DNA from: a virus
DNA length: 64,000 bases
Virus record (IMG/VR): IMGVR_UViG_3300020438_002794
Coordinates: 1 to 64,000 of that record
Strand: one strand, 5' to 3'
The position numbers and the translations under genes are program-made. Position 1 is the first letter of the stretch. Every line of letters starts with the position of its first letter. The notes under the pieces are model-generated. The model did no database searches and was not told where the DNA came from. It was given only the letters and a program-made list of their open reading frames with translations. Positions 22,229 through 53,943 of this stretch are shown here, piece by piece.

Positions 22229-22240
22229 ATATGTATTTAA
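22229..22240 (-). promoter_or_regulatory. late promoter-like TTAAATA directly before ATG
   Basis: Minus strand TTAAATA-CATAT-ATG(22228) in the only intergenic gap inside the tandem array; no SD. Confidence 0.55.
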
Positions 22241-22243
22241 CTA

Positions 22244-25311: not shown

Positions 25312-25425
25312 CTACTCATATATAAATGGATCTTTGTCCTTTAGTTCTTTCATTTTCTTTTTACGCCATTTGTACTCTTTGTATTTGGTCCAAGGTAAAA
25401 GAATAAAATCAATTATTGTTTGCAT
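25312..25425 (-). CDS. 37-aa basic peptide ending DPFIYE (not in ORF track)
   Basis: Manual translation MQTIIDFILLPWTKYKEYKWRKKKMKELKDKDPFIYE; AAGGAG SD; overlaps the upstream stop. Confidence 0.65.
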   Translation of the reverse strand: MQTIIDFILLPWTKYKEYKWRKKKMKELKDKDPFIYE

Positions 25426-26357
25426 AGTTGCTCCTTTATATATTCTATAGTATGCATTAATCCCGCCTGTCTGTCAACAGTGGGTTCCCACCCTAAACAG
25501 TCACGGGCAAGTTGAATATCCGGACAACGTTTGTTGGGATCATCTACTGCACTGGCTTGATGCACTATTTCACTAGTACTATCAGTAAGTTCAACAATCT
25601 CTTGTGCTAATTCAATTAAACTAACTTCGTCTGGATTCCCTATATTTACAGGACCTGCATGGTCACTGTTCATAAGTTTTATTAATCCTTGTACAGTATC
25701 AGTTACATAACAAAAACTTCTAGTCTGTAGTCCATCACCGTGTACAGTGATTGGTTTATTTTGCAATGCTTGTATTATAAAATTACTAACTGCTCTACCA
25801 TCATTCAGTGCCATGTGTGGTCCATATGTGTTGAATATTCTGGCAATAGTTGTATCAGCACTGCTGATAGTACACATGGTTTCTGCTACACGCTTGCCTT
25901 CATCATAACAAGCACGTGGTCCTAGTGTGTTTACGTTGCCCCAATATGTTTCTTTTTGTGGATGTTCAAGTGGATCACCATATACTTCGCTGGTGCTTGC
26001 TTGTAGCAATCTAGCGTCAGCTTGTTCAGCCACGCTCAACATGTTGATCACACCTTCCATGTTGGTCATCAGTGTGTTCCATGCATCGCTTTGATAGTGT
26101 ACAGGACTAGCAGGGCAAGCTAAGTTGTATATTTGTTTAAGCGGATCAAACTTTCCCATTAGTTGATAATCGTGCAAGGGAATTTTTATGTCCTGTTCAA
26201 TAAAATAATAATTATTTTTTCCTCTGAACTGTAGTAAGTTATCCGCTGATCCTGTGTAATAGTTGTCCACAGCAATTACAATCTCACCTTGTGCCAACAG
26301 TTGTTTACACAATTCAGTTCCTAATAATCCTGCGGCTCCTGTTACCAATATGGTCAT
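25413..26357 (-). CDS. uxs: UDP-glucuronate decarboxylase (UDP-xylose synthase), extended SDR
   Basis: TGAAGLLG, LACPASPVHYQ, ASTSEVYGDP, YWGNVN, RACYDEGKRVAE, RIFNTYGP, QTRSFCYV, DDP..R.PDI. Confidence 0.9.
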   Translation of the reverse strand: MTILVTGAAGLLGTELCKQLLAQGEIVIAVDNYYTGSADNLLQFRGKNNYYFIEQDIKIPLHDYQLMGKFDPLKQIYNLACPASPVHYQSDAWNTLMTNMEGVINMLSVAEQADARLLQASTSEVYGDPLEHPQKETYWGNVNTLGPRACYDEGKRVAETMCTISSADTTIARIFNTYGPHMALNDGRAVSNFIIQALQNKPITVHGDGLQTRSFCYVTDTVQGLIKLMNSDHAGPVNIGNPDEVSLIELAQEIVELTDSTSEIVHQASAVDDPNKRCPDIQLARDCLGWEPTVDRQAGLMHTIEYIKEQLCKQ

Positions 26358-27097
26358 ATATACCAATATCCCAATCGTTTTAAACTGTCGATTTTTGCTG
26401 TATCTCCTAAATACTCTTGTGTGTTATCCCAATCTTTGTATGCATATTTTCCAGTCACATGAAATATATGCCAATTTTCTGCACGTTCGTAGTTGTGTCC
26501 AGTGGGAAACAATGTAGGCTCTAATAAATCTATTCGTGTTTTTGTGTGTTTGATGTGGGTATTAACAAATAATTGACAGGTACTATCGTAACCGTTAGCA
26601 TACAAGTAATCTGTATCACACATACTTATGTTTATTGGAGTTGCCCTCATTCCGTACATGCCTGTACCACAGTTGTAATCACCGTGTGCTTTTATGGGGT
26701 CGCCCAGCCAAGCATACTGCTTGACACTTTGACATATTTGTTCTGCACCATTGTTAAACATTTGTCTTATGTGAACTGTGTAATCTTTTTGTGCAACACA
26801 ATCAACATCAGTATAAAACCAATTTAATCCACACTGCATAATTTGTTGACCTACAATAAATTTATATACAAACACATGATGATCACCTTGTGGTATGTAT
26901 ACTGTGGGAACACGGCTTTGCATTGCACTATAACTTAGTGAGTCCAATGCTACATACAATAAATCGATACCCAACTGTTTGCAGTTTTCAACCCAGTTCA
27001 TAGCCAATGGTAATACTGTTTGGTCTCCCATACACCAGAACACTGTGTCTGTACCATATTTTAATTGTGTGCAATATTCTTCAATTGACTTTGGCAT
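26354..27097 (-). CDS. nucleotide-diphospho-sugar transferase (GT77-like)
   Basis: NWVENC, YVALD, FYTDVD (DxD), CGTGMY, LFPTG, IFH; ATG 27097 with AGGAG SD. Confidence 0.65.
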   Translation of the reverse strand: MPKSIEEYCTQLKYGTDTVFWCMGDQTVLPLAMNWVENCKQLGIDLLYVALDSLSYSAMQSRVPTVYIPQGDHHVFVYKFIVGQQIMQCGLNWFYTDVDCVAQKDYTVHIRQMFNNGAEQICQSVKQYAWLGDPIKAHGDYNCGTGMYGMRATPINISMCDTDYLYANGYDSTCQLFVNTHIKHTKTRIDLLEPTLFPTGHNYERAENWHIFHVTGKYAYKDWDNTQEYLGDTAKIDSLKRLGYWYI

Positions 27098-29393
27098 TTC
27101 GATCTCCTTGATAAAATGCTTGCACACTAACAGTGTCTTGACTTTGTGCTTTAGCACGAATAGGACCCATGCCGTTGGGTATGCCTGCTTGTTGATCTGC
27201 TACAGTTTGATTTATTATTAAACTTATTATATGTTCATAACTGTCCATAAACTCTGTGTCACCCGCTTGTATATCAATGGGTTTGCCTTCTGTTATCCAT
27301 GTTTGCACAACTTGTTCAAGTGTTGTGCGTTCATCTACTTTGCCAATAATATATCTATCGTTGTTTGCTCTATCCAAAAAGCCTGCTTCTCTACACAAGT
27401 AAACCAATCCATATGCATCAACTACTAGGTCAACTTGTGGAAATCCTTTGGGTAGCATTTCTTTTTCTGTAATACAATGCATAGTGGGTGCATCTATTCC
27501 CTGACTTAATGCATTTAATGCATAGCCATAATCAATATGCAATTTATTCAACAGTTCGCCTTTGCGTCTTTGTTCTACTAGAGCAAACACTTGTTTAAGT
27601 TTTGTTCTATCTCCAAATGTTGAGGTATCAGTTGGCTCTCTGAAGTTCTCTCTCAGTGTAATAAAGTCAACTTGGTTACCACTGTCATGATTAATTTCTT
27701 CAATAAAATCTAGAACTTGTAGTAAATCTTCTTCTAGTCCTGGCAGTATAACATAATTAAATCCAAATCGCAATGTTTTATTATTCAATTTTTTATAACG
27801 CAAGAAGTCTGTTGCATTTTGTTTTATGCGTTCAAAGCCTTTCTTGTGTTTGGTCACTTGTTCATATACCGTCTGATTGCTTCCATACAAACTTATACGC
27901 AACACTTCAAGTTTAAACAAATCTGGGTTTGCATCAACAAACTTTTCAGTTAGCATGAATCCATTTGTATACAAGCTAAACTTGAATCCTCTTGCATGTC
28001 CAGCACTAATTAATTTCATTAAATCAGGATTGGTAAGTGTTTCTAACCCGCCACTCAAATAAAACTTGTAAGGGTCGTCGTTAGGTGCAGTGTTTAACAG
28101 GTTAACCAAATGAGGAGTAGCTTCCTTTAGTTGTGTCTTTTTGTATGCGGCATTTGTATCCATGTTACGACCACAAAACGTACACCAGAACATACAACTT
28201 TGTCCAATGTGTAGACCTATTCTATGTGGGTATCCGTATTGATTGTTTAATACTTTTTGTATAGTACCTGATTGATTTAAAGGTATTATTGTATTATTCC
28301 AATATTGACTGTTTCTAATATCATCAGTAATTACCTGTTGCACAAAGTCACTGTTTCTTAATATTCGATTAATTTCAATAATTTTAGGTTGACTTAGCTG
28401 TAACTTTTGTTGTATACTTGCCTGCTTTACAAATGGATCAGCACTGTAACAGTCAATTACACCCAAACATTTTTCTAATGTCCAGTCCAACTGTTGGTCA
28501 TATCTACTATGTGCTATCCCACTAGCAATTATATCACGACTCAAATAAAGTCCTAGTATCTGTTTACGGTCAAACTCCGTGTGATGTCTAATAATATCCA
28601 AATGTTGTTCGTGCAGTTGTTGTACACTTTTAACTATAGTTTCAGTTACCCAACGAGTGTTGTCTGCGGTATTCAATTGCACAATACCATTGACAAATGC
28701 TTCAAGTTGTCTATCTAAAGTTTTACCATCATCTTGGCTGAAGTCATACTCAACTCCATCTATGCTGATCGAACGTTTGTTCACACTGTCACGTTCAAAA
28801 CTAACATTGACTACAGTACCAGCAAAGTCTAATAACCAAAGTATACCCTGACTGGTTTGTTGTGTTTGTAAAACTGTGCAGGTTTGTTTGCTGATTATTT
28901 TTCTTAATATGGTCAATACATGCGGACCTATATCTTCTAATACACTGATAGTAGGATCACTTACATATGTGCTTCCGTGTCTTTGAACATTGTTTGCACT
29001 GTTCCATGTTATATCTATTGTTTTGGGTTGTTCAACTGTAGCGTCAGCTATCTCTTGTATGCGATTGCTGTATTCTAATTCTAACCCAACTACCAGTTTA
29101 CATTTGTTTTTGTGTGCTAGGTCAACCAATTGATCATGTTGCTCCACGGAGCGAACAAACGGTTTTTCAACCAGCAAGTGTCTACCATCTGCAAGTAATT
29201 CTACTGCACTAGCATAGTGATCATCTGGTAAGTTGGCAATCCACACATGTTTGCCTGTGAGATTGAGCAAGTTATCCACACTCGCTAGTTTTGTGTTATG
29301 AGTATAATACTCGGTTTGATATTGATTGTTTGTTGCAACACGATCTATTATTTGAGCCCAACGTCCACCGCCTACTATTCCGAGGGTACGCAC
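27081..29393 (-). CDS. fusion of Gfo/Idh/MocA oxidoreductase and DesII-like radical SAM enzyme (NDP-aminosugar ammonia-lyase family)
   Basis: N-terminus GIVGGGRWA, LVEKP, DIGPH; C-terminus YWNNTIIPL, SCMFWCTFCGR, YLSGGLETLTNP, LYTNG, RISLYG, DYGYAL, which I recognise as DesII-family motifs; GTG 29393 with GGAG SD. Confidence 0.82.
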   Translation of the reverse strand: MRTLGIVGGGRWAQIIDRVATNNQYQTEYYTHNTKLASVDNLLNLTGKHVWIANLPDDHYASAVELLADGRHLLVEKPFVRSVEQHDQLVDLAHKNKCKLVVGLELEYSNRIQEIADATVEQPKTIDITWNSANNVQRHGSTYVSDPTISVLEDIGPHVLTILRKIISKQTCTVLQTQQTSQGILWLLDFAGTVVNVSFERDSVNKRSISIDGVEYDFSQDDGKTLDRQLEAFVNGIVQLNTADNTRWVTETIVKSVQQLHEQHLDIIRHHTEFDRKQILGLYLSRDIIASGIAHSRYDQQLDWTLEKCLGVIDCYSADPFVKQASIQQKLQLSQPKIIEINRILRNSDFVQQVITDDIRNSQYWNNTIIPLNQSGTIQKVLNNQYGYPHRIGLHIGQSCMFWCTFCGRNMDTNAAYKKTQLKEATPHLVNLLNTAPNDDPYKFYLSGGLETLTNPDLMKLISAGHARGFKFSLYTNGFMLTEKFVDANPDLFKLEVLRISLYGSNQTVYEQVTKHKKGFERIKQNATDFLRYKKLNNKTLRFGFNYVILPGLEEDLLQVLDFIEEINHDSGNQVDFITLRENFREPTDTSTFGDRTKLKQVFALVEQRRKGELLNKLHIDYGYALNALSQGIDAPTMHCITEKEMLPKGFPQVDLVVDAYGLVYLCREAGFLDRANNDRYIIGKVDERTTLEQVVQTWITEGKPIDIQAGDTEFMDSYEHIISLIINQTVADQQAGIPNGMGPIRAKAQSQDTVSVQAFYQGDRNAKVN

Positions 29394-30856
29394 ACTTCTA
29401 CTCCGTACTGCTTGGTCCAACGATCAGCATCTTCTCTTGTGTTAACTAAAGGTTCTCCCTTTATGTTTAAACTTGTATTCAATAACATAGGACAGCCTGT
29501 GTCTGCATACCAACGTTCTAGCAGTTTTCTGAATCCGCTATTATCAGTAGTAGATACTGTTTGAACTCTGCTGGTGTCATCGTAGTGGACGATTGCTGGA
29601 AATTTGTCAGGTCTTTTACACGTTGAAGTATATTGCATGTATGGGCCTGTGTAACCTGTGAAATAATCTCCGGCATGTTCAGCGAGTATGGCTGGGGCAA
29701 AGGGTCTGAAACTTTCTCTGTGTTTGATAGTGTTAACAAGGTCTTTGACATCATCTCCGCGGGGATCAGCAAGAATACTACGGTTGCCAAGAGCCCTAGG
29801 ACCAAACTCAGCACGACCACTGGCAACTGCTGTAATTTTCTTTGACTGTAAATTTTTGAGTATGTTTTCAACTGGATACTCTCCTTTAATATTATGTCCC
29901 AAATAAGGACCGGGCCATTCAATATGATGTCCCCAATGTGCTAGTACACAACCTACTGCACTGCCACTATCACCTGGGTTTGGCATAATCCAAACATCTT
30001 TAAAGTACTTATATGCAATACTGTTGGCACTACAATTTAATGCACAGCCTCCCATCAGTACTAGGTTTTCTTTTTGAGTTGCATATTTTGTATACATAAC
30101 TAAACCATCAAAAATTTCTTCGTATATACGCTGTACTGCGGCGGCAATGTCAGCATAGTCTTGTGGTGTGTTTAGATCAGGTCTCCAATCTAAACAACCT
30201 CTATGACAGTTGCGTTTGAATAGTGTATAAGGGCTCCAACGTGTAGGTGAAAATTCAATAAAATCATTCTTTATGTCCTGGTACAACCTATCTGGATCGC
30301 CCACAGCCGCCATGCCCATGAGTATGTATTCATGTTCTTGTGGCTTTAGTCCTATACGCTGTGTCATAGCACTGTACCATATACCTATACTGTGTGGATA
30401 ACGTTGACTCCAAGTTTTTTTAAGACTATCACCTTCGCCTGTCCATATACTAACAGTATCCCATTCACCTATACTATCTATATTCAATATAGCCGCATCA
30501 GTATAAGGTGATGTATAATATCCTGCGCCAGCATGGGCATGATGATGACTAGTTGTAGTGCATTTAGGCGCATCTTTTAGGAACTTGCGTACATATGTAG
30601 TAGGTGATTCTTTGCCTAGTAGTGCGTATTGCTTTGAATACAGTTGGCGTGTCTTTTTAAGTAATGGTTTCTCATAAAAATATATTTTGTATGGCTCGCC
30701 ATAATCAAGAGCTTCATCGATTAAGTCTTGATTTAAGTTTTTATCATTCTTAACTCTACTGTAGCGTTCTGCATGTGCCGCAAACACTAGTTTTTTATCT
30801 CCAAATACTGCTAGGCTGGCATCATGTGCCATGCCTGTCCAGCCCCATGTGATCAT
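29375..30856 (-). CDS. O-carbamoyltransferase, NodU/CmcH/TobZ family
   Basis: HDAS, ERYSRVK, HHHAHA, GGCALNCSAN, GDSGSAVG, EFGPRALGNRSILADP, KHRESFRPFAP, LNTSLN. Confidence 0.95.
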   Translation of the reverse strand: MITWGWTGMAHDASLAVFGDKKLVFAAHAERYSRVKNDKNLNQDLIDEALDYGEPYKIYFYEKPLLKKTRQLYSKQYALLGKESPTTYVRKFLKDAPKCTTTSHHHAHAGAGYYTSPYTDAAILNIDSIGEWDTVSIWTGEGDSLKKTWSQRYPHSIGIWYSAMTQRIGLKPQEHEYILMGMAAVGDPDRLYQDIKNDFIEFSPTRWSPYTLFKRNCHRGCLDWRPDLNTPQDYADIAAAVQRIYEEIFDGLVMYTKYATQKENLVLMGGCALNCSANSIAYKYFKDVWIMPNPGDSGSAVGCVLAHWGHHIEWPGPYLGHNIKGEYPVENILKNLQSKKITAVASGRAEFGPRALGNRSILADPRGDDVKDLVNTIKHRESFRPFAPAILAEHAGDYFTGYTGPYMQYTSTCKRPDKFPAIVHYDDTSRVQTVSTTDNSGFRKLLERWYADTGCPMLLNTSLNIKGEPLVNTREDADRWTKQYGVEVCVPSE

Positions 30857-31041
30857 AATTCGGTCTCATTCATATTAATACATATAGCCTGTTGTCCTGC
30901 TTTGAAGTATCCTGCACCTCTGCCTACTTCTTCACTGAGAGCTTCTCTTGCATAAAAACATTCGTTCATATCTCTATGTTGACTTACTTTTTCTACATAA
31001 GGAGTTGCATCATAAAAATATACAAATACCAATACCCACAT
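30853..31041 (-). CDS. small hypothetical protein, hydrophobic N-terminus, two Cys
   Basis: 62 aa, coupled to neighbours. Confidence 0.65.
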   Translation of the reverse strand: MWVLVFVYFYDATPYVEKVSQHRDMNECFYAREALSEEVGRGAGYFKAGQQAICINMNETEL

Positions 31042-31433
31042 TAAAGGTCGCCTCGCTCTCTCATTTCAGCACGAATTTTTGTAGCACTTATGTTGTGTAC
31101 ACGTTCGCCCAAGTCATGCTCAGTAAAAGTATAACCTACTCCTCTGCCATAACTGATATCCACAATATTAGGAACTAGCATTACTTCAAAGTCTTCGCCA
31201 ATAATATAACCTTTTGTATATAGACTACCAGCAATATCATTTTCTACTTGTTTAAAATCAAACGGATTATCTACGTTTCCCATTCCGGCATCAGCACCTT
31301 GTACATCACGAACCATAATTAATACTTGTCCTGTAATCCCTAGTGCCTTTTCAAAAAGTATTGTATGCCCTTCATGCCAAGGTTGCCATCTTCCTAGTAG
31401 TTGTACTGTTGGTTTTTTATAATCAAATACCAT
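31041..31433 (-). CDS. HxGH-family nucleotidyltransferase (cytidylyltransferase / ATP-sulfurylase-like)
   Basis: GRWQPWHEGH, DNPF, ISATKIR. Confidence 0.8.
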   Translation of the reverse strand: MVFDYKKPTVQLLGRWQPWHEGHTILFEKALGITGQVLIMVRDVQGADAGMGNVDNPFDFKQVENDIAGSLYTKGYIIGEDFEVMLVPNIVDISYGRGVGYTFTEHDLGERVHNISATKIRAEMRERGDL

Positions 31434-31848
31434 TACGTTTTCTCCATCTTTCGACTACAGGTTTAAGTTGCTCAGCTGTGTCTGTAAACCATTGTGCTAC
31501 ATGGTAGTCACATGCAGGCGGTTTTTCAAACATAGCATTTGTATCCGCATAGCGTCCTTGTTCAATAGTATCCATCCACACTGTGTAGTCAGGTGCAAAT
31601 TCTTGTCTTGCACGTTCTGTTGGACAAACAAAGTCTGCCACAGCTATTCCACCTTTAGCAACAACACCATCTGCTAAGTCTCGCATACGTTTTGCTTGAC
31701 GCATTCTACCTTCGGGTGTAAAGTCCCAATCGTTAGCTTGTTCTCTTACTCGATCAGCATTGATCCATACTGCGCCAATTAACTCAGCAAAGGGTTCTGC
31801 TAGTGTGCTTTTACCACTACCTGGTAGTCCAAATATCAATATTTTCAT
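31423..31848 (-). CDS. cysC: adenylyl-sulfate (APS) kinase-like P-loop kinase
   Basis: GLPGSGKST, NADRVR, DWDFTPEGRMRQA, ADFVCP, FEKP. Confidence 0.75.
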   Translation of the reverse strand: MKILIFGLPGSGKSTLAEPFAELIGAVWINADRVREQANDWDFTPEGRMRQAKRMRDLADGVVAKGGIAVADFVCPTERARQEFAPDYTVWMDTIEQGRYADTNAMFEKPPACDYHVAQWFTDTAEQLKPVVERWRKRNGI

Positions 31849-32362
31849 CTTGTACATCCTTTATTAGTTTGTATGGTATTCCAATACTTTCTAATAATCG
31901 TATGAGTCTTATCTCACTGCCTTTCATTATTGTATCTATAGAGTTATTATCTATAAATCTTTCTAAGTATTTTATTTGTCCATCGGTTAAATTCATATCC
32001 CATCTTTTTTGTATGTTATCACCTAGCTCAGTTTCAAATATGCCATTGGCCCATAACAAATCATCCTCTACTGCATGATTGCAGTAGTAGAATTCAAAAT
32101 TCTCTTGCTCAAGTCGCCACAAATGTTCTTTCCAGTCAAACTTGTAAAAACAAAGATCTTGGACATTTGCACCTTGTATAACAATATGTTCATACTTCTT
32201 TATTATATCATCTTTATGTAAATGTGTCAAGATATCATAATAGTTGATGTAGTTTCCGTAATCCAAAGTATACACAGTATATAGATGTTCATCAGACAAC
32301 TTTTCTAACCAAGTTGATCCTGGTTTGCTTGCACCGTCACCAATTATCAGTACATCTTTCAT
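31817..32362 (-). CDS. degenerate SGNH-like hypothetical protein
   Basis: VLIIGDG N-terminal strand and IVIQ resemble neighbours; catalytic Ser and His not evident. Confidence 0.45.
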   Translation of the reverse strand: MKDVLIIGDGASKPGSTWLEKLSDEHLYTVYTLDYGNYINYYDILTHLHKDDIIKKYEHIVIQGANVQDLCFYKFDWKEHLWRLEQENFEFYYCNHAVEDDLLWANGIFETELGDNIQKRWDMNLTDGQIKYLERFIDNNSIDTIMKGSEIRLIRLLESIGIPYKLIKDVQDENIDIWTTR

Positions 32363-33204
32363 CTCAGTTTTTCCAATGCTTTGCGTACAGCCTTTCCAAC
32401 TTTTTTATTACCTGCTTTATTAAAATGTCCAATAAAAGTATCTTTACCATCTCTGCTTATTTTAGGATCTATAGGAGCAAATATATGATACTTTTTATTG
32501 AGGAACATGTTCATACTACCTTTACCTACTCCCCAAGGATACGGAATATCTAAACATATACCGTGTTCAAATTGAGGTGTGACTTCTTCAGCTTCTTCTA
32601 CCCATTTAAAATAATACAGTGGTGTTTCAGTTTCTCTGCATCTTTCATCTATTAGTGTAGCACAACTTTGTATCACATGTTTATTGGTCATGCCATGAAA
32701 CATCATTTTTCGCCATTCAATAGCTTCGTTTATGTTTCCTCCAAAGTCACCTTTGCCGTTAGCACTAATAAAATTAAAGTATCTAGCAGTGCCTTTACCT
32801 TGATATAAATCAACGTTTTCTGCTTGCACTTCATACTCATGCCAAAATCTATCACCTATATGTCCTGGTTCATTCCATGTGAGTCTAGGTTCATATGTTA
32901 ATTGTACTAATACATAATCGAAATCTTTGAGACGATTTTTATTGTAATAGTGTTCGAGTACTGTAGCATGTTGTACTATGCCTCCACCACTAACTGCATA
33001 AAGTGTGTGATAGTTTTTTGGATCTAAACTCTCAACCCAACCGCCATTTACATCAAGTGTTTCTCTGCCTAGTCCGTTGTCTACTTTCTTTGTAGTGCCG
33101 TCAGGTTGTAGCACATCACTATACATAATATAGTTTGGATCATATGTATAGCTTCCTGCACTAAAACTACAGCCAAACACCAATACATTTTCATTGTAGT
33201 CCAT
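32359..33204 (-). CDS. SGNH/GDSL-like hydrolase or acyltransferase
   Basis: VFGCSFSAG block I, AVSGGG block II, VQLTYEPR, GHFNKAGN block V. Confidence 0.65.
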   Translation of the reverse strand: MDYNENVLVFGCSFSAGSYTYDPNYIMYSDVLQPDGTTKKVDNGLGRETLDVNGGWVESLDPKNYHTLYAVSGGGIVQHATVLEHYYNKNRLKDFDYVLVQLTYEPRLTWNEPGHIGDRFWHEYEVQAENVDLYQGKGTARYFNFISANGKGDFGGNINEAIEWRKMMFHGMTNKHVIQSCATLIDERCRETETPLYYFKWVEEAEEVTPQFEHGICLDIPYPWGVGKGSMNMFLNKKYHIFAPIDPKISRDGKDTFIGHFNKAGNKKVGKAVRKALEKLR

Positions 33205-33850
33205 CGCCTAAACCTTTTTTAATCATCTGTCCTAAAACAGTGTTTCCTTTTTGTGTAAAGTGTAAATCCGGATTGTGTAAATCTTTTTTGTAAAACAGTT
33301 GTTCAGTTGCAGGCTTTACATCTAAGTATTTAATATATTTATATGGGTACTTAACTCCAGTAAAACTGTAGCTGTATGTGGGCAATCCTGTTTGTTGGGC
33401 TAGACGATCCAAGTGACTTGCACATGCTTTAGTTAGTATATTCCAACTGTTTTCCATTTGCCAAAACCAATCACTCATTCCTTGTTGCCATTTGAAATTA
33501 TATTGGTTAGCAATTTTGTTTTGCACTTTAGGTAATCCTCCTAGTCTATTATGAAATGCATTATCTATTGTCCATGCAAAAACATTGAGTCTAGATGTAT
33601 AATACTCAAGTTGTTTCTGTATTACAATTCTAGGTTCCCATGTCTCTTGTATAATTATAGCACTATATTTTTTTATGTCAATTGATTCTAAACATGCACA
33701 GTAGCTCATAATGCCACCTCCTGGATGTGCATAAACTTGATATGGCCGATCAAGTTCATCATACCAGCAATAGTCTGTGTGTAGTGTTTCTGTTGTATTG
33801 TCGTAGCTGTACCAGCCCATACTAAAACTACAACCTAATATTAATATCAT
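33191..33850 (-). CDS. SGNH/GDSL-like hydrolase or acyltransferase
   Basis: ILGCSFSMG, AHPGGG, IQETWEPR, DLHFTQKGN; paralog of 32359-33204. Confidence 0.65.
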   Translation of the reverse strand: MILILGCSFSMGWYSYDNTTETLHTDYCWYDELDRPYQVYAHPGGGIMSYCACLESIDIKKYSAIIIQETWEPRIVIQKQLEYYTSRLNVFAWTIDNAFHNRLGGLPKVQNKIANQYNFKWQQGMSDWFWQMENSWNILTKACASHLDRLAQQTGLPTYSYSFTGVKYPYKYIKYLDVKPATEQLFYKKDLHNPDLHFTQKGNTVLGQMIKKGLGDGLQ

Positions 33851-35121
33851 GCGTTAGCCTGTTCAACCAGTGTTTTCATATTTCCAAAGTTTACACTTTT
33901 ATGATTTGCATTTGCTACTCTAGGATCACGTAGCACTTGTAAAAAGTTTTCGTATTCAGGATGATCGGGTTTCCAAATAGCTCTAATATTAAAGTCAATC
34001 ATGTGTCCCCAATCAACAATAAGTGTAAATGTTGCTCTACTATACTTTCCAGGTCCTGACCAACGATCTGTTACCATTTGTATAAAGTCTGGTATCTCTT
34101 TATAGTTACATGTTTGTACAACAAAGTTATGACTCATTGCTCCGCTGAGTAGATTACCTGTATTGTAACTATTTTTAGTTTTTGTAAAACTAGGTATTTG
34201 ACTGTAAACATAATCTACATTACTGACTAGTTGATCCCAGTGACCTCCTAGTCTTGTTTCTTTTTCATATGTTTCTTTTTTACCAGCATCAAAACTAAAA
34301 ACAATTTGTTTAATTTGTTTATGAACTTTGCTTATACTATCCCAAACCTTAGGAGTAAGCATTACACCGTTTGTTTGAAAGTTAAGCCATGTGTTTGGTC
34401 TGTCAGTAAGATCCATTTCTTGTAAACGTTCTCTAAATATTTTACTACCAAAAGGATCACCACCACCTGTTATCCATATATCAAATTGATAATCTTTAGG
34501 TGCCTTCATTATTTCATCAAATAACTTATCTGTAAGTGATTTTCTTTGATCATATTTTTCACCTTTAGAATGAATAATTTTACTATTTCTACAGCTAGGA
34601 CAATATAAGTTACAACTTTCATCTGTACCAACTTGTATATCGTGTGGCAAGTAACTGGCTTGCGTACTACGGTTTTTTAATGACTCAATAATAATTGGAT
34701 CTACATTATATTTTTTAGGATTATCTATTACATTAGTTATTAGTGGCAATGCTGTTTCTGCATACTGAATTTTAGGACAAGTGTTGTGTTTGCAATGGGG
34801 CCAGTTCGCTCCGTCATACAACTGGTTACGAATTTCCTGCGCCTTAGATCCATTCCATATCTCTTCCATTGTGTTTACATTTAGATCACCTATGACTACT
34901 GGTAGCCAAAAAGGACAACACATGAAAACCAAACCCATGTTATTGATTTCTGCTCTATTAAAAAAATAACTGCAATATCTTCCGTTAAGATCTTTTTTGG
35001 TACCCGCAATAAGACTATCGTCTTGGTGGAAACCTTTGGGCTTCCATCCCTTAGGTTTACCTTTTATTACAATGTCAGGCGTTGAAGACTGCACTGCATC
35101 TACTACAGAGGTCAATGTCAC
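33847..35121 (-). CDS. radical SAM protein with N-terminal SPASM-like module
   Basis: CSYFF..MCC..IWNG..CKHNTC; CNLYCPSC; GGGDPF; QTNG; SFDAG; start codon uncertain. Confidence 0.9.
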   Translation of the reverse strand: MTLTSVVDAVQSSTPDIVIKGKPKGWKPKGFHQDDSLIAGTKKDLNGRYCSYFFNRAEINNMGLVFMCCPFWLPVVIGDLNVNTMEEIWNGSKAQEIRNQLYDGANWPHCKHNTCPKIQYAETALPLITNVIDNPKKYNVDPIIIESLKNRSTQASYLPHDIQVGTDESCNLYCPSCRNSKIIHSKGEKYDQRKSLTDKLFDEIMKAPKDYQFDIWITGGGDPFGSKIFRERLQEMDLTDRPNTWLNFQTNGVMLTPKVWDSISKVHKQIKQIVFSFDAGKKETYEKETRLGGHWDQLVSNVDYVYSQIPSFTKTKNSYNTGNLLSGAMSHNFVVQTCNYKEIPDFIQMVTDRWSGPGKYSRATFTLIVDWGHMIDFNIRAIWKPDHPEYENFLQVLRDPRVANANHKSVNFGNMKTLVEQANA

Positions 35122-35869
35122 AGCGTTTTCCTTTTGCTAATAATGATTTATAGTCATTGTACTTTTTGCTATTCCAAACGTCTACAGGACTTGTATTCAT
35201 GTCAACTTTGCCCACAGGATTGCGTTTACCAAAGTCCCATGGACACAAATACATTGTACCGTCGATATATATAAATGCTTCATTTTCAACTTTTTTACAA
35301 GGCAAGTTTAAACTTTCGGTCTGATCTTCCCAAGGATGAGAATACAGTTCAGTAATTTTAGCACATCCTGGTCTTACATTATTCCAATAATCTAAAAACA
35401 TTTCCTGTTCAGCTTCGGTATCTGGCAAGTTAATCATTCTCACCTCACAATCTATTTCAGGATGATTGTCTACAAATCTAGTTACGTTTTCATATACTCT
35501 ATCAAAGCTAATACCTCTTGTTTCATCAAAAGTTTTTTTAGTAAATCCATCAACACTAAAACGCATTATGTCAACAAACGGTGCAATCTTTCGTTCTGTT
35601 TTCAGCGTCATGGGTTCACCATTGCTGTTGAGTTCTACTTTGGCTGTAGGATCTTCTTTGATATATCTTGCTATGTCCGGAAGTCTTGTATCAACTAGCG
35701 GCTCGCCTAGTCCAAAAGGTCTATACGTTATGCCTAGGTCTCTTGTATCATCTATAATTTTATAGATCAATTCAGGTTCCATGTGTTCTTTAGGAACCAA
35801 ATGATTTGGACAAAACCAACAAGTTGCATTACAAAATGTAGTTGTTTCTATTTGGAGGTATTTAAACAT
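35075..35869 (-). CDS. radical SAM/SPASM(twitch) protein with canonical C-terminal module
   Basis: CNATCWFC, LGEPL, NSNG, SVDG; C-terminal C..C..VWNS..CSRC. Confidence 0.92.
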   Translation of the reverse strand: MFKYLQIETTTFCNATCWFCPNHLVPKEHMEPELIYKIIDDTRDLGITYRPFGLGEPLVDTRLPDIARYIKEDPTAKVELNSNGEPMTLKTERKIAPFVDIMRFSVDGFTKKTFDETRGISFDRVYENVTRFVDNHPEIDCEVRMINLPDTEAEQEMFLDYWNNVRPGCAKITELYSHPWEDQTESLNLPCKKVENEAFIYIDGTMYLCPWDFGKRNPVGKVDMNTSPVDVWNSKKYNDYKSLLAKGKRCDIDLCSRCSAVFNA

Positions 35870-36873
35870 ATTAGTTTCTCAAATTGATCCTTGGGCAATG
35901 TAGTTAATCTGATAGCTGTGCTACTAAATTCTGGTGCTTTGCCATACAGTATCTTTTGAGAATCTAATCTACTGATTATTTCGTCAGTTGGCTCAAACAC
36001 AACATGATTGATCGTTGGCTCGCTATATATTTTACAATTACTAAAATATTTATGTGCAAACTCAATACCTTCTCTATTGCGTTCCAAGCTCTTTTCTACT
36101 ATATAATGATGTTTGTGCAGGTATTCTGCAAGTCTAAGTGTAATACTGCTTACACTCATAATTGGTCTTATCTTTGTAATTTGACTAATTGTATTTGCAT
36201 GTCCTTGTAGTATGCCAAGTCTAGCACCTGCAAGTCCCCAACTTTTGCTATAACTAAATGCTAATAAACAATTTTCATAATTGCATAAGTCAAAATAATC
36301 TTCTGTACAAAAATGTCTGTATGTATTATCTATTAGCACAGTCATTTTTGGATATGCTCCACAGATATAATCTATAAACTTTGCACTGTAAACTCGACCA
36401 CTTGGATTATTTGGACTACAAATGTAAAATACATCTGGTCGATGCTGTTCTATACTAGCTGTGATACTATCTTCATCTTCGTTGCATTCAATTATATTTG
36501 TAGTAAGGTCTATTGCATTTGTAACACTGCCTCTGTATGTTGGTGCTATTGTTAAGAACGTTTTACTATTATCAAGTGTTGCTTCAAATGTTAAACGTAT
36601 TGCTTCGTCACAACCTCCAGTAATTAATATATTGTCCATTGTTGTGTTGTAGTAGTCGGCAAATATTTCATAGTACCTATAGTAATCTTCATACTTCATT
36701 GAACTTGACAAATCCAAAAAGTGTTTTATAGCTTTTTGTATATGACCACACAGTACTTCGTCTTGGTTTTCATTTCTATCTAAGTTTATGTAGCCAGCTT
36801 CGATCTTTTCTACTCTATTAAGTAAGCCACTCCAATGTGGTCTTTGTAGTTGTTTTATACTATCTCTAATCAC
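35848..36873 (-). CDS. PLP-dependent class I/II aminotransferase (HisC/CobD-like)
   Basis: LDRNEN, TGGCDEAI, PTY, CSPNNPSG, DNTY, SYSKSWGLAGARLG; GTG 36873 with GAGG SD preferred over 36948. Confidence 0.88.
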   Translation of the reverse strand: MIRDSIKQLQRPHWSGLLNRVEKIEAGYINLDRNENQDEVLCGHIQKAIKHFLDLSSSMKYEDYYRYYEIFADYYNTTMDNILITGGCDEAIRLTFEATLDNSKTFLTIAPTYRGSVTNAIDLTTNIIECNEDEDSITASIEQHRPDVFYICSPNNPSGRVYSAKFIDYICGAYPKMTVLIDNTYRHFCTEDYFDLCNYENCLLAFSYSKSWGLAGARLGILQGHANTISQITKIRPIMSVSSITLRLAEYLHKHHYIVEKSLERNREGIEFAHKYFSNCKIYSEPTINHVVFEPTDEIISRLDSQKILYGKAPEFSSTAIRLTTLPKDQFEKLICLNTSK

Positions 36874-38209
36874 TGAACACAACCTCAGCCTCAGCTTTTT
36901 GCTCTTCAGTTCTTTCAAAATAATATTTGTGTTCAATGTCTCTACCATAGATAGGATAGTAAAAAATATCTTTATCTTTGGGTATTATTTTTTGCACTTT
37001 TTCAGCAAAAGGTGTATCTTCAAAACTCATACACTTAACATTAATTTGATCTTGTGGATAGTCTGCAACTAAATTGCTAACTTTTTGTAACACTTTATCT
37101 ATTGTAAACTCTACATGAAAACTAAATTCTAAGAACACACCTTTGTCTAATAGATCTCTATATTTTTTCTCACTGCCTGTTCCGTTTGTGCTTATTCTAG
37201 TTTCATATCCTTTTTTAAACGCTATGTCTACTAGGTCTGCTATCTGTGGATTGAGTGTTGGTTCTCCTCCGGTAATATAAAGTCGTCGACTGGGTTTTTT
37301 AGGAACATAAGGATCAACTAAATTTAATCCATGTGTAAACTCATCTACAGTCATATGTGGGCTTGCGTTATCATGTACACCATTTATTAACTTGCCTGTA
37401 TCATCAAAAGTTGGTCCAGGACAATATGCACAATCATAATTGCAACGTAATCCAATATGAAAATGTACTTCAGCCATTGGCATTGCCATACCTCTACCCA
37501 TTGCTACAATGTTATCATCTGTTTTTGCAACTGGTAATTCTTCTAACTGCCAATGATTAAACTGTTTATTTGTAGTAAAATATTCTAACAATTCTTCTGT
37601 TTTTGCTTTTGGTTGTAGTAAGTCAGCATCACAAAAACATGCTTTGGTTTTACACAAAGTTTCTGTATTAAGATCTAACTTGTTATAATCTTTCCAATGT
37701 CCTTCGTGACTTGCAATATGTCTCACATTTGCACAAACACCACTACAAATTTCACCAACTGGATTAATACTAAAGTTAGTTTTATATATAGGACAATGCC
37801 AGCCTCGCATGTCCATTTGACGCATTTTTAAGTCTACCATGCTTATGCGTTTGTATTCCATTTTGTCTGTTAATACATAAACTGGATTCTCTACATACAC
37901 AGGCTTTTTATAACCAATAGTGCCATCATCTCGTATTAGTATGCCGGTATTACCTGTACCAATCCATACGTTACCATTCATATTTCTTGTTACAAGTTGT
38001 TCAACAATTTGTCCATCTTCGTAACGGTTAATATTACGAGTAACTTTGCTTACAGCATAACCATGTAACTTGTCGTCTTTATACTGTCCTGCATATGTTT
38101 TGTCAACACCCAATCCGTTGCGTTTACCGTCAGTATATTCAGCAACCGAATCTTCCATCTCGCCCGGACCCGAGTAACCATTTCTAAGCATTTTTTTAGT
38201 TACTTTCAT
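36866..38209 (-). CDS. MORN-like repeats + twitch module + radical SAM core (permuted type B)
   Basis: YTDGKRNGLG, YAGQYKDDKLHGYA; GWHC..C..C..CKTKACFCDAD lies before CNYDCAYC, TGGEPT, STNG, SFHVE. Confidence 0.85.
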   Translation of the reverse strand: MKVTKKMLRNGYSGPGEMEDSVAEYTDGKRNGLGVDKTYAGQYKDDKLHGYAVSKVTRNINRYEDGQIVEQLVTRNMNGNVWIGTGNTGILIRDDGTIGYKKPVYVENPVYVLTDKMEYKRISMVDLKMRQMDMRGWHCPIYKTNFSINPVGEICSGVCANVRHIASHEGHWKDYNKLDLNTETLCKTKACFCDADLLQPKAKTEELLEYFTTNKQFNHWQLEELPVAKTDDNIVAMGRGMAMPMAEVHFHIGLRCNYDCAYCPGPTFDDTGKLINGVHDNASPHMTVDEFTHGLNLVDPYVPKKPSRRLYITGGEPTLNPQIADLVDIAFKKGYETRISTNGTGSEKKYRDLLDKGVFLEFSFHVEFTIDKVLQKVSNLVADYPQDQINVKCMSFEDTPFAEKVQKIIPKDKDIFYYPIYGRDIEHKYYFERTEEQKAEAEVVFSD

Positions 38210-38852
38210 GGTACTCGCTTCCTTGTCTGAAGAAATCATATTCTGGGTATCCAGTAACTTCTTTTAGTATAAAGTTATCCTTTTTAAAAACCAGATCAAC
38301 CTGGTGCAGGTTTCCACGTTCATAATCCATGTTTACAATATCCCACAAGTGAAAACCTATATCTTCTAGTTCTATTTTTATAAAACCAATAGTGTCTAAT
38401 TGACTTTCTACTACTATCAGATTAAATTTAGCCAGTGTCTCTAATCCGCCAACTATTACATCTAATTCATAACCATCGACGTCAATTTTACACAAACTAT
38501 GCAAAGGTGGGTCAATACCTAAACTATCCAAAGTTTTTATGTTAGACTTTATATCAAAAGTTTCGCCTTCGTGTACGCACCTTAAACTTGCTTGTGTTTG
38601 ATTAGTGTTACCAACTGCTACATTTATAAGTTCATAACTGTAGTTTTTATAGTTTTCGTATATTACATTATTATGATTTGTATCTGGTTCAACTAAAACA
38701 TAATGTGCTTTAGGAAAACTATACTGTAACCACGGAGTTCCCGAATGTACTCCAATATCCAAACAATATTCAACGTGACAACCCGACTCTTTTAAAAATT
38801 GCAAGCTATCTTTTATTCTAGGAATACGATGTCTAATCATTTCCGACCTCAT
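38196..38852 (-). CDS. FkbM-family methyltransferase
   Basis: LDIGVHSG, VEPD, AVG, TLD, KIDVDGYE, QVDLVF; start may be 38840. Confidence 0.88.
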   Translation of the reverse strand: MRSEMIRHRIPRIKDSLQFLKESGCHVEYCLDIGVHSGTPWLQYSFPKAHYVLVEPDTNHNNVIYENYKNYSYELINVAVGNTNQTQASLRCVHEGETFDIKSNIKTLDSLGIDPPLHSLCKIDVDGYELDVIVGGLETLAKFNLIVVESQLDTIGFIKIELEDIGFHLWDIVNMDYERGNLHQVDLVFKKDNFILKEVTGYPEYDFFRQGSEYHESN

Positions 38853-53928: not shown

Positions 53929-53943
53929 TATAATGTATTTATA
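53929..53943 (-). promoter_or_regulatory. T4 late promoter consensus TATAAATA
   Basis: Minus strand TATAAATA (53943-53936), then CATTATA-ATG(53928). Confidence 0.65.

What the first reader, a model, noticed from the sequence alone, without database searches (positions are those of the whole stretch)
27081..29393. Gfo/Idh/MocA oxidoreductase fused to a DesII-like radical SAM deaminase in a phage
Seen: one ORF of about 770 aa with an N-terminal Rossmann/EKP oxidoreductase and a C-terminal domain carrying YWNNTIIPL, CMFWCTFC, SGGLETLTNP and DYGYAL. Established: DesII converts TDP-4-amino-4,6-dideoxyglucose to TDP-3-keto-4,6-dideoxyglucose in desosamine synthesis and can also oxidise C3 of TDP-quinovose. 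Gfo/Idh/MocA enzymes serve as NDP-sugar 3-ketoreductases. Inference: a two-step enzyme making a rare 4-deoxy or C3-epimerised NDP-sugar for the adjacent GT77-like transferase. No DesI/DegT-type aminotransferase is visible in the window, so the substrate source is open.
Basis: partly seen in the sequence, partly recalled or inferred. Interest (0 to 1): 0.82.

Follow-up and report, generated by a model that had tools for sequence, protein, structure and literature searches.

The report
Phage DesII-type deoxysugar fusion enzyme
A marine jumbo phage has one gene that joins an NAD(P)-type sugar oxidoreductase to a complete DesII-type radical SAM lyase; this fusion is real, is the commonest but unstudied form of a rare enzyme family, and probably makes a deoxy sugar for the phage's glycan-building gene cluster.

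Summary
Window 27081-29393 (-) is one intact 770-aa gene (GTG start with a GGAG ribosome-binding site). It joins a Gfo/Idh/MocA oxidoreductase domain to a full-length DesII-family radical SAM domain. The latter scores 352 bits on TIGR04426, 250 bits against DesII 8HZV, and a model TM-score of 0.91. Every DesII cluster, SAM-binding and catalytic residue is kept.

The fusion is not an artefact and is not special to phages. About 60 fused clusters exist, and 18 of 33 full-length clusters at 50% identity are fused. They include an isolate actinomycete and several bacterial phyla. Marine Thaumarchaeota and SAR11 carry the two halves as adjacent genes.

Cellular relatives sit beside DegT-type C4-aminotransferases and glycosyltransferases. 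This supports a DesI/DesII-type C4 deoxygenation followed by C3 ketoreduction.

The phage clade has no DegT. The fusion instead travels with a UDP-xylose synthase ortholog, a GT77-like transferase, a HisC-like aminotransferase and a BtrN-like radical SAM enzyme. This linkage persists in a clade only about 36% identical and with a different gene order.

Best reading (about 0.55): a bifunctional radical lyase and ketoreductase that makes an NDP-4-deoxy sugar. The substrate, possibly derived from UDP-xylose, is inferred only.

The scan noted this stretch only on this same genome, not on other DNA.

The parts
27081..29393 (-). Fusion gene, 770 aa from GTG 29393. The longest ORF starts at TTG 29420 (779 aa), and residue numbers in this report use that 779-aa numbering.
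   Evidence: ORF. GGAG lies 7 nt upstream of GTG 29393. The 100%-identical 770-aa cluster is P0002. The full-length AlphaFold2 model has pLDDT 90.1 and pTM 0.89.
28521..29393 (-). N-terminal Gfo/Idh/MocA oxidoreductase domain (residues 10 to about 300). It has a Rossmann GGGRWA motif (29355-29372), EKP (29160-29168) and DIGPH (28920-28934).
   Evidence: PF01408 at 2.8e-9. Motif coordinates were verified. G17, G19, W21, H68, E85, P87, D155, H167 and D226 are invariant, and K86 and D163 nearly so, among 44 fused proteins. The domain model has pLDDT 88. The best Foldseek hits are GnnA UDP-GlcNAc 3-dehydrogenase (1.4e-15, TM 0.7), GenD2 and WlbA.
27156..28496 (-). Complete DesII-family radical SAM domain (residues 309-755). 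It comprises a six-helix N-terminal subdomain, the radical SAM core and a C-terminal subdomain. Landmarks: CMFWCTFC cluster motif 28173-28196; SGGLE 28041-28055; RISLY ribose motif 27885-27899; E678 (DesII E408) 27387-27389; D726 (DesII D456) 27243-27245.
   Evidence: TIGR04426 at 352 bits. DesII 8HZV at 5.7e-73, query 372-755 aligned to DesII 104-485. Foldseek TM 0.91 and rmsd 2.6 A against 8HZV. Residue roles come from PMC11434129. Conservation was checked in 61 sequences and coordinates were verified.
26354..27097 (-). GT77-like nucleotide-diphospho-sugar transferase. It probably starts at ATG 27097 behind an AGGAG site and overlaps the end of the fusion gene by 17 nt.
   Evidence: PF03407 at 7.1e-5 and 23.3 bits. 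Start context. Atlas neighbours are all viral PF03407 clusters. It lies directly downstream of the fusion in all six loci of the clade. A 29%-identical homolog lies near the fusion in L074.
25413..26366 (-). UDP-glucuronate decarboxylase (UDP-xylose synthase, UXS) ortholog.
   Evidence: Human UXS1 4GLL/2B69 at 7e-96 and 324 bits over 310 residues, with the STSEVYG and YDEGK motifs. It is conserved next to the GT77-like gene in G000, L003, L005, L037, L004 and L038.
29375..30856 (-). NodU/TobZ-type carbamoyltransferase. It overlaps the fusion start by 19 nt.
   Evidence: Carbam_trans_C at 2e-52 and Carbam_trans_N at 3e-39. NodU at 1.4e-42. It is absent at this position in L004 and L038, so it is not part of the core.
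35075..35869 (-). Small (264 aa) radical SAM enzyme with a C-terminal SPASM/twitch domain, BtrN-like.
   Evidence: Radical_SAM at 9e-15 and SPASM at 2e-7. The only PDB sequence hit is BtrN at 3.5e-14. It lies directly upstream of the fusion in L004 and L038. A 59%-identical homolog lies near the fusion in L074.
35848..36948 (-). HisC-like class I/II PLP aminotransferase, a candidate amine installer.
   Evidence: PF00155 at 2.4e-27. TIGR01141 hisC at 135 bits, below its cut-off of 276. PDB HisC hits at about 1e-16. It is co-conserved with the fusion in every locus of the clade, and at 49% identity in L074.
36866..38239 (-). MORN-repeat radical SAM protein. It belongs to the conserved block upstream of the aminotransferase. 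Its role is unknown.
   Evidence: Radical_SAM at 4.7e-12. It is conserved in G000, L003, L005, L037, L004 and L038.

Best explanation
The gene encodes a single polypeptide with two active enzymes that act in succession on a nucleotide-activated sugar. The C-terminal DesII-type radical SAM domain uses a 5'-deoxyadenosyl radical to abstract the C3 hydrogen of a 4-amino-4-deoxy sugar nucleotide. It then eliminates ammonia and leaves a 3-keto-4-deoxy sugar. The N-terminal Gfo/Idh/MocA domain reduces that ketone with NAD(P)H. The net result is C4 deoxygenation, giving an NDP-4-deoxy sugar. The downstream, translationally coupled GT77-like transferase then installs this sugar as part of the phage's large glycan-tailoring cluster. 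In this phage clade the classical partners (a 4,6-dehydratase and a DesI/DegT aminotransferase) are missing. Their roles are probably taken by the adjacent UDP-xylose synthase, a BtrN-like radical SAM alcohol dehydrogenase and a HisC-like aminotransferase, so the product could be a UDP-4-deoxypentose. What is shown: domain identities, intact catalytic residues, conservation of the fusion, and gene linkage. What is inferred: substrate, order of steps, product and acceptor.
For: The C-terminal domain is a full DesII-family domain. C409/C413/C416, GGLE, R508/S510/Y512, E678 (DesII E408) and D726 (DesII D456; D456A is inactive in PMC11434129) are conserved in all 11 phage-clade sequences and almost all of 61 family members. 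The N-domain keeps the Rossmann, EKP-Lys and D-x3-H residues across 44 fused proteins. Its nearest folds are UDP-sugar and aminoglycoside C3 dehydrogenases: GnnA, GenD2 and WlbA. The two domains are joined by a short, confidently modelled linker, with whole-chain pTM 0.89. Functional coupling is supported by Rosetta-stone evidence. A marine Thaumarchaeote (L028) and SAR11 genomes (L024, L026) carry the DesII-like gene and a homolog of the N-domain as adjacent separate genes. In cellular genomes the fused gene sits in polysaccharide clusters. A DegT aminotransferase lies directly upstream in Omnitrophota L008 and Solihabitans L017. GT4, GT2, Bac_transf and WecG lie downstream. Those DegT proteins are closest to C4-aminotransferases: perosamine synthetase at 243 bits and ArnB at 235 bits. 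In the phage clade the block HisC-like aminotransferase, BtrN-like rSAM, fusion, GT77-like, UXS is conserved at 57-79% identity. Fusion, GT77-like, aminotransferase and BtrN-like stay linked in a different order in the clade that is about 36% identical (L074).
Against: No biochemical data exist for any fused member. The score is 352 bits, below the 450-bit equivalog cut-off, and the clade is far from canonical DesII in the tree, so the substrate and even the reaction outcome may differ. DesII itself dehydrogenates rather than dehydrates TDP-quinovose. No DegT, UDP-glucose dehydrogenase or nucleotidyltransferase is present in the 87 kb available. HisC-like aminotransferases are not known to act on sugar nucleotides (my own knowledge). 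UXS plus GT77-like could be a self-contained xylosylation unit unrelated to the fusion. The Foldseek ranking among Gfo/Idh/MocA structures is shallow (E 1e-15 to 1e-12) and cannot tell a reductase from a dehydrogenase.
Confidence: 0.55

Rival explanations
1. Reverse order, giving 3-deoxygenation. The Gfo/Idh/MocA domain acts first as a GnnA/WlbA/GenD2-type C3 dehydrogenase. An aminotransferase then makes the 3-amino sugar. The DesII-like domain removes that amine by abstracting hydrogen from a neighbouring carbinol, which gives a 3-deoxy-keto sugar.
For: The top structural neighbours of the N-domain are C3 dehydrogenases. From my own knowledge, these work in pairs with aminotransferases (GnnA/GnnB, WlbA/WlbC, GenD2/GenS2). 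An aminotransferase is always nearby.
Against: The DegT partners in cellular loci resemble C4-aminotransferases more than 3-aminotransferases. Perosamine synthetase and ArnB score above WbpE and QdtB. This order leaves the BtrN-like dehydrogenase without a role and needs an extra reductase. All DesII catalytic residues, tuned for C3-H abstraction, are unchanged.
Confidence: 0.13
2. No amine is involved. The DesII-like domain acts directly on a diol sugar nucleotide such as UDP-xylose or UDP-arabinose. It works either as a radical dehydrogenase giving the 3-keto sugar, which the N-domain reduces from the other face (C3 epimerisation), or as a diol dehydratase.
For: DesII dehydrogenates TDP-quinovose and partly dehydrates TDP-fucose (PMC11434129). 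The phage clade lacks DegT. UXS is adjacent.
Against: A Gfo/Idh/MocA enzyme alone can oxidise C3, which makes a radical SAM dehydrogenase redundant. An aminotransferase remains linked to the fusion across two divergent phage clades. DegT is adjacent in cellular relatives and in standalone viral forms.
Confidence: 0.13
3. The chemistry is as in the best explanation, but the phage enzyme uses a host-made NDP-4-amino sugar such as UDP-Ara4N, dTDP-viosamine or GDP-perosamine. The HisC-like aminotransferase, the BtrN-like enzyme and UXS serve other branches of the glycan cluster.
For: The record is only about 24% complete and lacks early pathway genes. Phage auxiliary genes often tap host pools (my own knowledge). 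UXS plus GT77-like is a sufficient unit on its own.
Against: The aminotransferase and BtrN-like genes remain linked to the fusion after rearrangement and at about 36% identity.
Confidence: 0.12
4. The substrate is not a sugar nucleotide. It could be an aminocyclitol or a free or phosphorylated sugar, with the N-domain acting like an inositol dehydrogenase.
For: BtrN acts on an aminocyclitol and HisC-like enzymes act on phosphorylated small molecules (my own knowledge). Inositol dehydrogenases are among the fold hits.
Against: All characterised DesII chemistry is on TDP-sugars. The contexts are NDP-sugar enzymes and glycosyltransferases.
Confidence: 0.05
5. The fusion is an assembly or frameshift artefact.
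For: None found.
Against: There are identical and 55-79%-identical full-length copies on independent contigs. Fused forms occur in many phyla, including two copies in the isolate Solihabitans fulvus. 18 of 33 full-length clusters at 50% identity are fused. The linker is modelled with confidence.
Confidence: 0.01

Closest known systems
DesII (Streptomyces venezuelae; TDP-4-amino-4,6-dideoxy-D-glucose ammonia-lyase; PDB 8HZV/8HZY; TIGR04426)
   Same: It has the same three-subdomain fold (TM 0.91), the CX3CX2C motif, the GGLE motif, the ribose motif, and the equivalents of E408 and D456. The HMM is covered almost end to end.
   Different: Identity is only 33-37%. The score is 352 bits against a 450-bit cut-off, whereas Streptomyces orthologs score 733-824. 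It is fused to an oxidoreductase. No DesI/DegT partner lies nearby. It is encoded by a phage. The beta-6 residues D323/Y324 are N/F.
DesI/DesII plus 3-ketoreductase logic of 4,6-dideoxyhexose (chalcose-type) pathways (from my own knowledge)
   Same: A C4 amination, radical deamination to the 3-ketone, then C3 ketoreduction gives a 4-deoxy sugar. Cellular relatives have a DegT-type C4 aminotransferase, an SDR, the DesII-like enzyme and a Gfo/Idh/MocA enzyme together.
   Different: Here the lyase and reductase are one polypeptide. The phage version replaces the 4,6-dehydratase with a UXS ortholog and replaces DegT with a HisC-like aminotransferase plus a BtrN-like rSAM enzyme.
Gfo/Idh/MocA sugar C3 oxidoreductases: GnnA (7BVK), WlbA (3OA0), GenD2 (6NOR); KijD10-type NDP-sugar 3-ketoreductases (the last from my own knowledge)
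   Same: It has a Rossmann domain plus an alpha/beta domain, the EKP lysine and the D-x3-H pair. The best fold matches are at E 1e-15 to 1e-13 and TM about 0.7.
   Different: Sequence identity is 13-18%. The Pfam C-terminal domain models do not detect it. It is permanently fused to a radical SAM enzyme. The direction of catalysis is unknown.
BtrN/BtrS (radical SAM alcohol dehydrogenase followed by transamination) and ArnA/ArnB (UDP-GlcA decarboxylation to a 4-ketopentose, then C4 transamination) (from my own knowledge)
   Same: The co-conserved BtrN-like rSAM enzyme, an aminotransferase and a UXS/ArnA-type SDR offer the same hydroxyl-to-ketone-to-amine logic on a pentose nucleotide. The Thaumarchaeal partner DegT is ArnB-like.
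   Different: The aminotransferase is HisC-like, not DegT/ArnB-like. The BtrN similarity is 56 bits, mainly over the N-terminal 104 residues. Nothing links these enzymes to the fusion except gene order.

Membership tests
DesII family (TIGR04426, dTDP-4-amino-4,6-dideoxy-D-glucose ammonia-lyase) | CX3CX2C radical SAM cluster motif and SAM-binding motifs (GGE, ribose motif, beta-6) | tested here: met
   C409/C413/C416, SGGLE and R508-I-S510-L-Y512 are present. The beta-6 residues D323/Y324 are N592/F593; D323 contacts adenine through its backbone, per PMC11434129.
DesII family (TIGR04426, dTDP-4-amino-4,6-dideoxy-D-glucose ammonia-lyase) | Full three-subdomain architecture: N-terminal six helices, radical SAM core, C-terminal hairpin and helices | tested here: met
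   The HMM covers positions 26-461 of 468. There are six helices at 309-391. Foldseek against 8HZV gives TM 0.91 and rmsd 2.6 A over about 489 columns.
DesII family (TIGR04426, dTDP-4-amino-4,6-dideoxy-D-glucose ammonia-lyase) | Active-site acid pair E408/D456 | tested here: met
   E678 and D726. D is invariant and E is nearly invariant in 61 family members.
DesII family (TIGR04426, dTDP-4-amino-4,6-dideoxy-D-glucose ammonia-lyase) | Score above the curated equivalog cut-off (450 bits) | tested here: not met
   352 bits. For comparison: Streptomyces 733 and 824, fused Solihabitans 627, fused P0044 456, SAR11 334, Thaumarchaeota 328.
DesII family (TIGR04426, dTDP-4-amino-4,6-dideoxy-D-glucose ammonia-lyase) | Genomic partner DesI-type (DegT) 4-aminotransferase and an NDP-hexose 4,6-dehydratase | tested here: not met
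   No PF01041 hit in G000, G001 or G002 or in any of the six clade loci. The adjacent SDR is a UXS ortholog. The feature is met in cellular relatives and in standalone viral forms.
DesII family (TIGR04426, dTDP-4-amino-4,6-dideoxy-D-glucose ammonia-lyase) | SAM-dependent deamination of an NDP-4-amino-4-deoxy sugar | not testable with these tools
   This needs an anaerobic enzyme assay.
Gfo/Idh/MocA oxidoreductases | N-terminal Rossmann fold with a glycine-rich loop, above the Pfam threshold | tested here: met
   PF01408 at 38.1 bits against a cut-off of 24. GGGRWA lies at 29355-29372.
Gfo/Idh/MocA oxidoreductases | EKP motif lysine and downstream Asp/His catalytic residues | tested here: met
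   E85-K86-P87 and D163-x3-H167 are conserved in 44 fused proteins.
Gfo/Idh/MocA oxidoreductases | C-terminal alpha/beta substrate-binding domain | tested here: met
   Pfam sequence models do not find it. The model (pLDDT 88) superposes on whole GnnA, GenD2 and WlbA chains at TM 0.64-0.71.
NDP-sugar 3-ketoreductase (KijD10-type) subgroup | Specific similarity to characterised 3-ketoreductases rather than dehydrogenases | tested here: inconclusive
   The top hits are 3-dehydrogenases. The ranking among family members is shallow, and no 3-ketoreductase appears in the rows shown.
UDP-xylose synthase (neighbour 25413-26366) | Close full-length similarity to characterised UXS, with the T-S-E and YxxxK motifs | tested here: met
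   324 bits and 7e-96 against human UXS1. STSEVYG and YDEGK are aligned.

The most novel reading that the evidence does not exclude
The phage clade encodes a complete sugar C4-deoxygenation route that needs neither a 4,6-dehydratase nor a DegT aminotransferase. The proposed steps are as follows. UXS makes UDP-xylose. A BtrN-like radical SAM dehydrogenase oxidises C4. A HisC-like aminotransferase, a family not known to act on sugar nucleotides, installs the amine. The fused DesII-like/Gfo enzyme removes the amine and reduces C3. The product would be a so far undescribed UDP-4-deoxypentose, which a GT77-like enzyme transfers onto a phage or host target. A corollary is that the well-studied standalone DesII is a fission product of an older fused enzyme.
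Probability: 0.2. Interest if true: 0.8.

Novelty: new variant of a known kind. Interest (0 to 1): 0.6.

Why it matters
DesII is a textbook radical SAM enzyme, yet it has been studied only in its standalone antibiotic-pathway form. Here the family proves to be small: 54 clusters at E <= 1e-30 among 1.84 billion representatives. It is mostly fused to a ketoreductase-type domain, and it is used in surface-glycan clusters of several bacterial phyla, of marine archaea and SAR11, and of uncultured phages. That gives enzymologists a natural two-step deoxygenation catalyst to test. It also points to 4-deoxy sugars as an overlooked component of marine microbial and viral glycans. Finally, the phage version has no DegT or 4,6-dehydratase, which suggests an alternative way to install the amine. 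For phage biology it adds a concrete, assayable entry point into a very large radical-SAM and glycan cluster next to the tail genes.

Tried and rejected
1. tblastn of the fusion against 50,697 deposited phage genomes found no match.

Contexts came from the search for related loci instead.

3. No DegT (PF01041) was found in G000, G001 or G002. The weak hits in the 1.2-Mb MAG G003 lie on other contigs.

4. No UDP-glucose dehydrogenase was found in G000.

5. The idea that cellular relatives also use UXS was rejected. The SDRs near the Thaumarchaeal and SAR11 genes are GalE/RmlB-type.

6. The metagenome scan for the sister clade gave only two short contigs. They were still informative.

7. A single origin of the fusion was rejected. 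The AU test gives p = 0.0002 against one fused clade.

8. Literature searches combined DesII with phage, MocA, fusion or metagenome, and radical SAM with jumbo phage. They found no description of this architecture. The library lacks most subscription journals.

10. I considered an electron-donor role for the N-domain and rejected it, because hydride enzymes without flavin cannot reduce an Fe-S cluster (my own knowledge).


Full report
THE GENE

Window 27081-29420 (-) is one open frame of 779 codons. The probable start is GTG at 29393, which has GGAG 7 nt upstream. The start overlaps the stop of the upstream carbamoyltransferase gene by 19 nt. The stop is overlapped by 17 nt by the downstream transferase gene, which probably begins at ATG 27097 behind an AGGAG site.

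THE TWO DOMAINS

Pfam finds GFO_IDH_MocA at residues 33-112 and Radical_SAM at residues 405-573.

NCBIfam TIGR04426 (rSAM_desII) matches residues 310-748 at 4.5e-105 and 352 bits. The match covers profile positions 26-461 of 468 but is below the 450-bit equivalog cut-off.

The crystallised DesII of S. venezuelae (8HZV/8HZY) aligns at 5.7e-73, with query 372-755 matching DesII 104-485.

I mapped the residues described in the DesII structure paper (PMC11434129):
- The cluster cysteines C141/C145/C148 correspond to C409/C413/C416.
- GGLE is kept.
- The ribose motif R238/S240/Y242 is kept.
- The proposed general base E408 corresponds to E678.
- D456, whose alanine mutant is inactive, corresponds to D726.
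- Only the beta-6 pair D323/Y324 differs (N/F). The paper says D323 contacts adenine through its backbone.

These positions are conserved in all 11 phage-clade sequences and nearly all of 61 family members.

An AlphaFold2 model of the whole chain, built from 44 sequences, has pLDDT 90.1 and pTM 0.89, with a short confident linker at about residues 300-308. Its C-terminal part superposes on DesII at TM 0.91 and rmsd 2.6 A, including the six-helix N-terminal subdomain.

The N-domain keeps GGGRWA, the EKP lysine (K86) and D163-x3-H167. All are invariant or nearly so among 44 fused proteins. Its separate model has pLDDT 88. It best matches GnnA (UDP-GlcNAc 3-dehydrogenase, 1.4e-15, TM about 0.7), GenD2 and WlbA. 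The ranking among Gfo/Idh/MocA structures is shallow.

Both halves therefore look catalytically competent.

NOT AN ARTEFACT AND NOT PHAGE-SPECIFIC

The word-indexed search returned about 24 clusters of full-length fused proteins at 55-78% identity. It also returned about 40 more at 28-37% identity (740-905 aa), and standalone proteins of about 470-540 aa at about 40% identity.

The exhaustive HMMER search of 1.84 billion representatives at 50% identity shows a small family: 54 proteins at E <= 1e-30. By my count of the listed rows, 18 of 33 full-length representatives are fused.

In species-representative genomes, fused genes occur in Cyanobacteriota, Omnitrophota, Actinomycetota, Bacteroidota, Gammaproteobacteria and Acidobacteriota. 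One is the isolate Solihabitans fulvus, which has two copies. The Solihabitans fusion scores 627 bits on TIGR04426 and an Acidobacterial one scores 456. Fused proteins therefore include members above the equivalog cut-off.

The tree is a quick IQ-TREE with SH-aLRT support and midpoint rooting. It shows the following:
- The phage-type sequences form one clade (support 100).
- This clade is sister to a second marine fused clade, P0026/28/32 (support 90).
- Together they group with standalone SAR11 and Marine Group I Thaumarchaeota proteins (support 95).
- Canonical Streptomyces DesII groups with the fused Solihabitans proteins (support 100), inside a set of fused forms.

An AU test rejects a single fused clade (p = 0.0002). 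Fusion or fission therefore happened more than once.

In Thaumarchaeote L028, the standalone DesII-like gene lies next to a separate 297-aa Gfo/Idh/MocA gene that is homologous to the N-domain of the fusion. SAR11 loci L024 and L026 have the same arrangement. This split-versus-fused pattern is classical evidence that the two activities work together.

CONTEXT IN CELLS

In Omnitrophota L008 a DegT/DnrJ/EryC1 aminotransferase (1.4e-96) lies directly upstream, and GT4 and GT2 genes lie downstream. In Solihabitans L017 a DegT homolog lies upstream, with a PhyH dioxygenase and an SDR downstream. In Gloeocapsa, Cytophagaceae and Actinomycetota loci, a Bac_transf initiating transferase and a WecG-type transferase follow the fused gene. 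The Thaumarchaeal locus adds DegT, GT4 and an SDR.

The DegT partners are closest to C4-aminotransferases. L008 best matches perosamine synthetase at 243 bits, and L028 matches ArnB at 235 bits. They score lower against the 3-aminotransferases WbpE and QdtB.

This fits a linear path: SDR, then C4 transamination, then radical deamination to the 3-ketone, then ketoreduction. From my own knowledge, that is the logic of DesI/DesII followed by a 3-ketoreductase, as in 4,6-dideoxyhexose pathways.

CONTEXT IN PHAGES

The window belongs to an 87-kb IMG/VR record that CheckV estimates to be 24% complete. It has baseplate wedge, SbcCD-like and portal genes. Its portal is 52-53% identical to those of the jumbo phages PA5oct and Phosso.

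Six syntenic loci share the block MORN-methyltransferase, MORN-rSAM, HisC-like aminotransferase, small rSAM-SPASM, fusion, GT77-like, SDR. They are G000, L003, L005, L037, L004 and L038. In L004 and L038 the block is contiguous. In G000, L003, L005 and L037 about seven genes are inserted before the fusion, including the carbamoyltransferase. None of the six has DegT.

Three of the block's genes can be identified more closely:
- The SDR is a clear UDP-glucuronate decarboxylase (UDP-xylose synthase) ortholog. It scores 324 bits against human UXS1 and has the TSE and YxxxK motifs.
- The only PDB sequence match of the 264-aa rSAM-SPASM protein is BtrN, the radical SAM 2-deoxy-scyllo-inosamine dehydrogenase (3.5e-14).
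- The aminotransferase is HisC-like.

The sister clade is also encoded in this kind of radical-SAM-rich viral cluster (L039). On contig L074 the gene order is fusion, sulfotransferase-like, GT77-like (29% identity), HisC-like aminotransferase (49%), BtrN-like (59%). The four functions thus stay linked after rearrangement and at about 36% identity of the fusion. That argues for a shared pathway.

By contrast, about 20 other IMG/VR contigs carry a standalone DesII-like gene with a DegT gene immediately adjacent. They also have an SDR about 2 kb upstream and often a carbamoyltransferase. This is a conventional DesI/DesII-type set.

No deposited phage genome in INPHARED has a match.

MECHANISM

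My best reading has a confidence of about 0.55. The radical SAM domain abstracts H-3 of an NDP-4-amino-4-deoxy sugar and eliminates ammonia to give the 3-keto-4-deoxy sugar. The fused Gfo/Idh/MocA domain reduces C3. The GT77-like enzyme then uses the resulting 4-deoxy sugar nucleotide.

For this phage clade I infer the following route, with a confidence of about 0.2-0.25. UXS supplies UDP-xylose or its 4-keto intermediate. The BtrN-like enzyme and the HisC-like aminotransferase replace the usual 4,6-dehydratase and DegT steps to install the C4 amine. The product is a UDP-4-deoxypentose.

The rivals are:
- The reverse order, with the N-domain acting as a C3 dehydrogenase and the net result being 3-deoxygenation.
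- Amine-free dehydrogenation or dehydration of a diol sugar. DesII itself dehydrogenates TDP-quinovose.
- Use of a host-made amino sugar.
- A non-nucleotide substrate.

None of these is excluded without assays. The C4-type DegT partners, and the fact that the best reading uses every co-conserved enzyme, make it the most economical.

NOVELTY

DesII and Gfo/Idh/MocA enzymes are both well known. The fused architecture, its dominance in the family, its split forms in marine archaea and SAR11, and its phage versions with a non-DegT partner set are a different matter. I found no description of them in the searchable literature. I rate the finding a new variant of a known kind, with moderate-to-high interest for radical SAM and glycobiology specialists.

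The scan's earlier notes on this stretch all come from this same genome.

Noticed in passing
window 12679-23326, 33847-35121, 44401-47051: The many radical SAM paralogs have a SPASM/twitch module in front of the core. At least 33847-35121 matches the curated NCBIfam subfamily NF033640 'N_Twi_rSAM' (70 bits, below its cut-off of 170). The N-terminal twitch layout is therefore an already recognised architecture, although such a dense phage array is striking.
   Followed up: partly
window 25413-26366: The phage encodes a UDP-xylose synthase ortholog that is very similar to human UXS1 (324 bits). It lies next to a GT77-like transferase whose look-alike clusters are almost all viral (phages and giant viruses).
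   Followed up: partly
L040-L059 (IMG/VR contigs): About 20 viral contigs carry a standalone DesII-like gene with a DegT aminotransferase directly adjacent. They also have an SDR about 2 kb upstream and often a carbamoyltransferase 46-52% identical to the one in the window. These are phage-borne DesI/DesII-type pairs. None is found in deposited phage genomes.
   Followed up: partly
L017, L021 (Solihabitans fulvus) and L018-L027 (Streptomyces): Canonical standalone Streptomyces DesII groups (support 100) with fused Solihabitans proteins that score 627 bits on the DesII model. An AU test rejects one origin of the fused form. Standalone DesII may be a fission product.
   Followed up: partly
L028:9896-12216; L024 and L026 around 9900-12130: Marine Group I Thaumarchaeota and SAR11 single-cell genomes carry the DesII-like gene and a homolog of the fusion's oxidoreductase domain as neighbouring separate genes. 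In L028 an ArnB-like DegT, a GT4 and an SDR lie nearby.
   Followed up: partly
L005 (NZGL01000008.1, 108 kb, binned as Gammaproteobacteria MAG MED685): This contig is syntenic with the phage cluster over more than 22 kb at 40-93% protein identity. It is probably a phage contig binned into a bacterial MAG, or a weak hint at the host.
   Followed up: no
window 29375-35121: Relative to L004 and L038, about seven genes are inserted between the BtrN-like gene and the fusion. They include the carbamoyltransferase, a cytidylyltransferase-like protein, an APS-kinase-like P-loop kinase and an N_Twi_rSAM. The cluster is therefore modular.
   Followed up: partly
window 31423-31857 and 40263-41833: An APS-kinase-like protein and two weak sulfotransferase-like paralogs suggest sulfation within the cluster. 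A sulfotransferase-like gene also sits right after the fusion in L039 and L074.
   Followed up: no
window 53939-64000 (continues to 65233 in the record): A giant ORF of 3764 aa lies directly downstream of a 1190-aa baseplate wedge-like gene. It is presumably a fibre or other structural protein at the head of the co-oriented gene run that contains the glycan cluster.
   Followed up: no
L022, L029, L031: In these MAG and SAG assemblies the family member is split by frame breaks. These are either assembly errors or pseudogenes.
   Followed up: no
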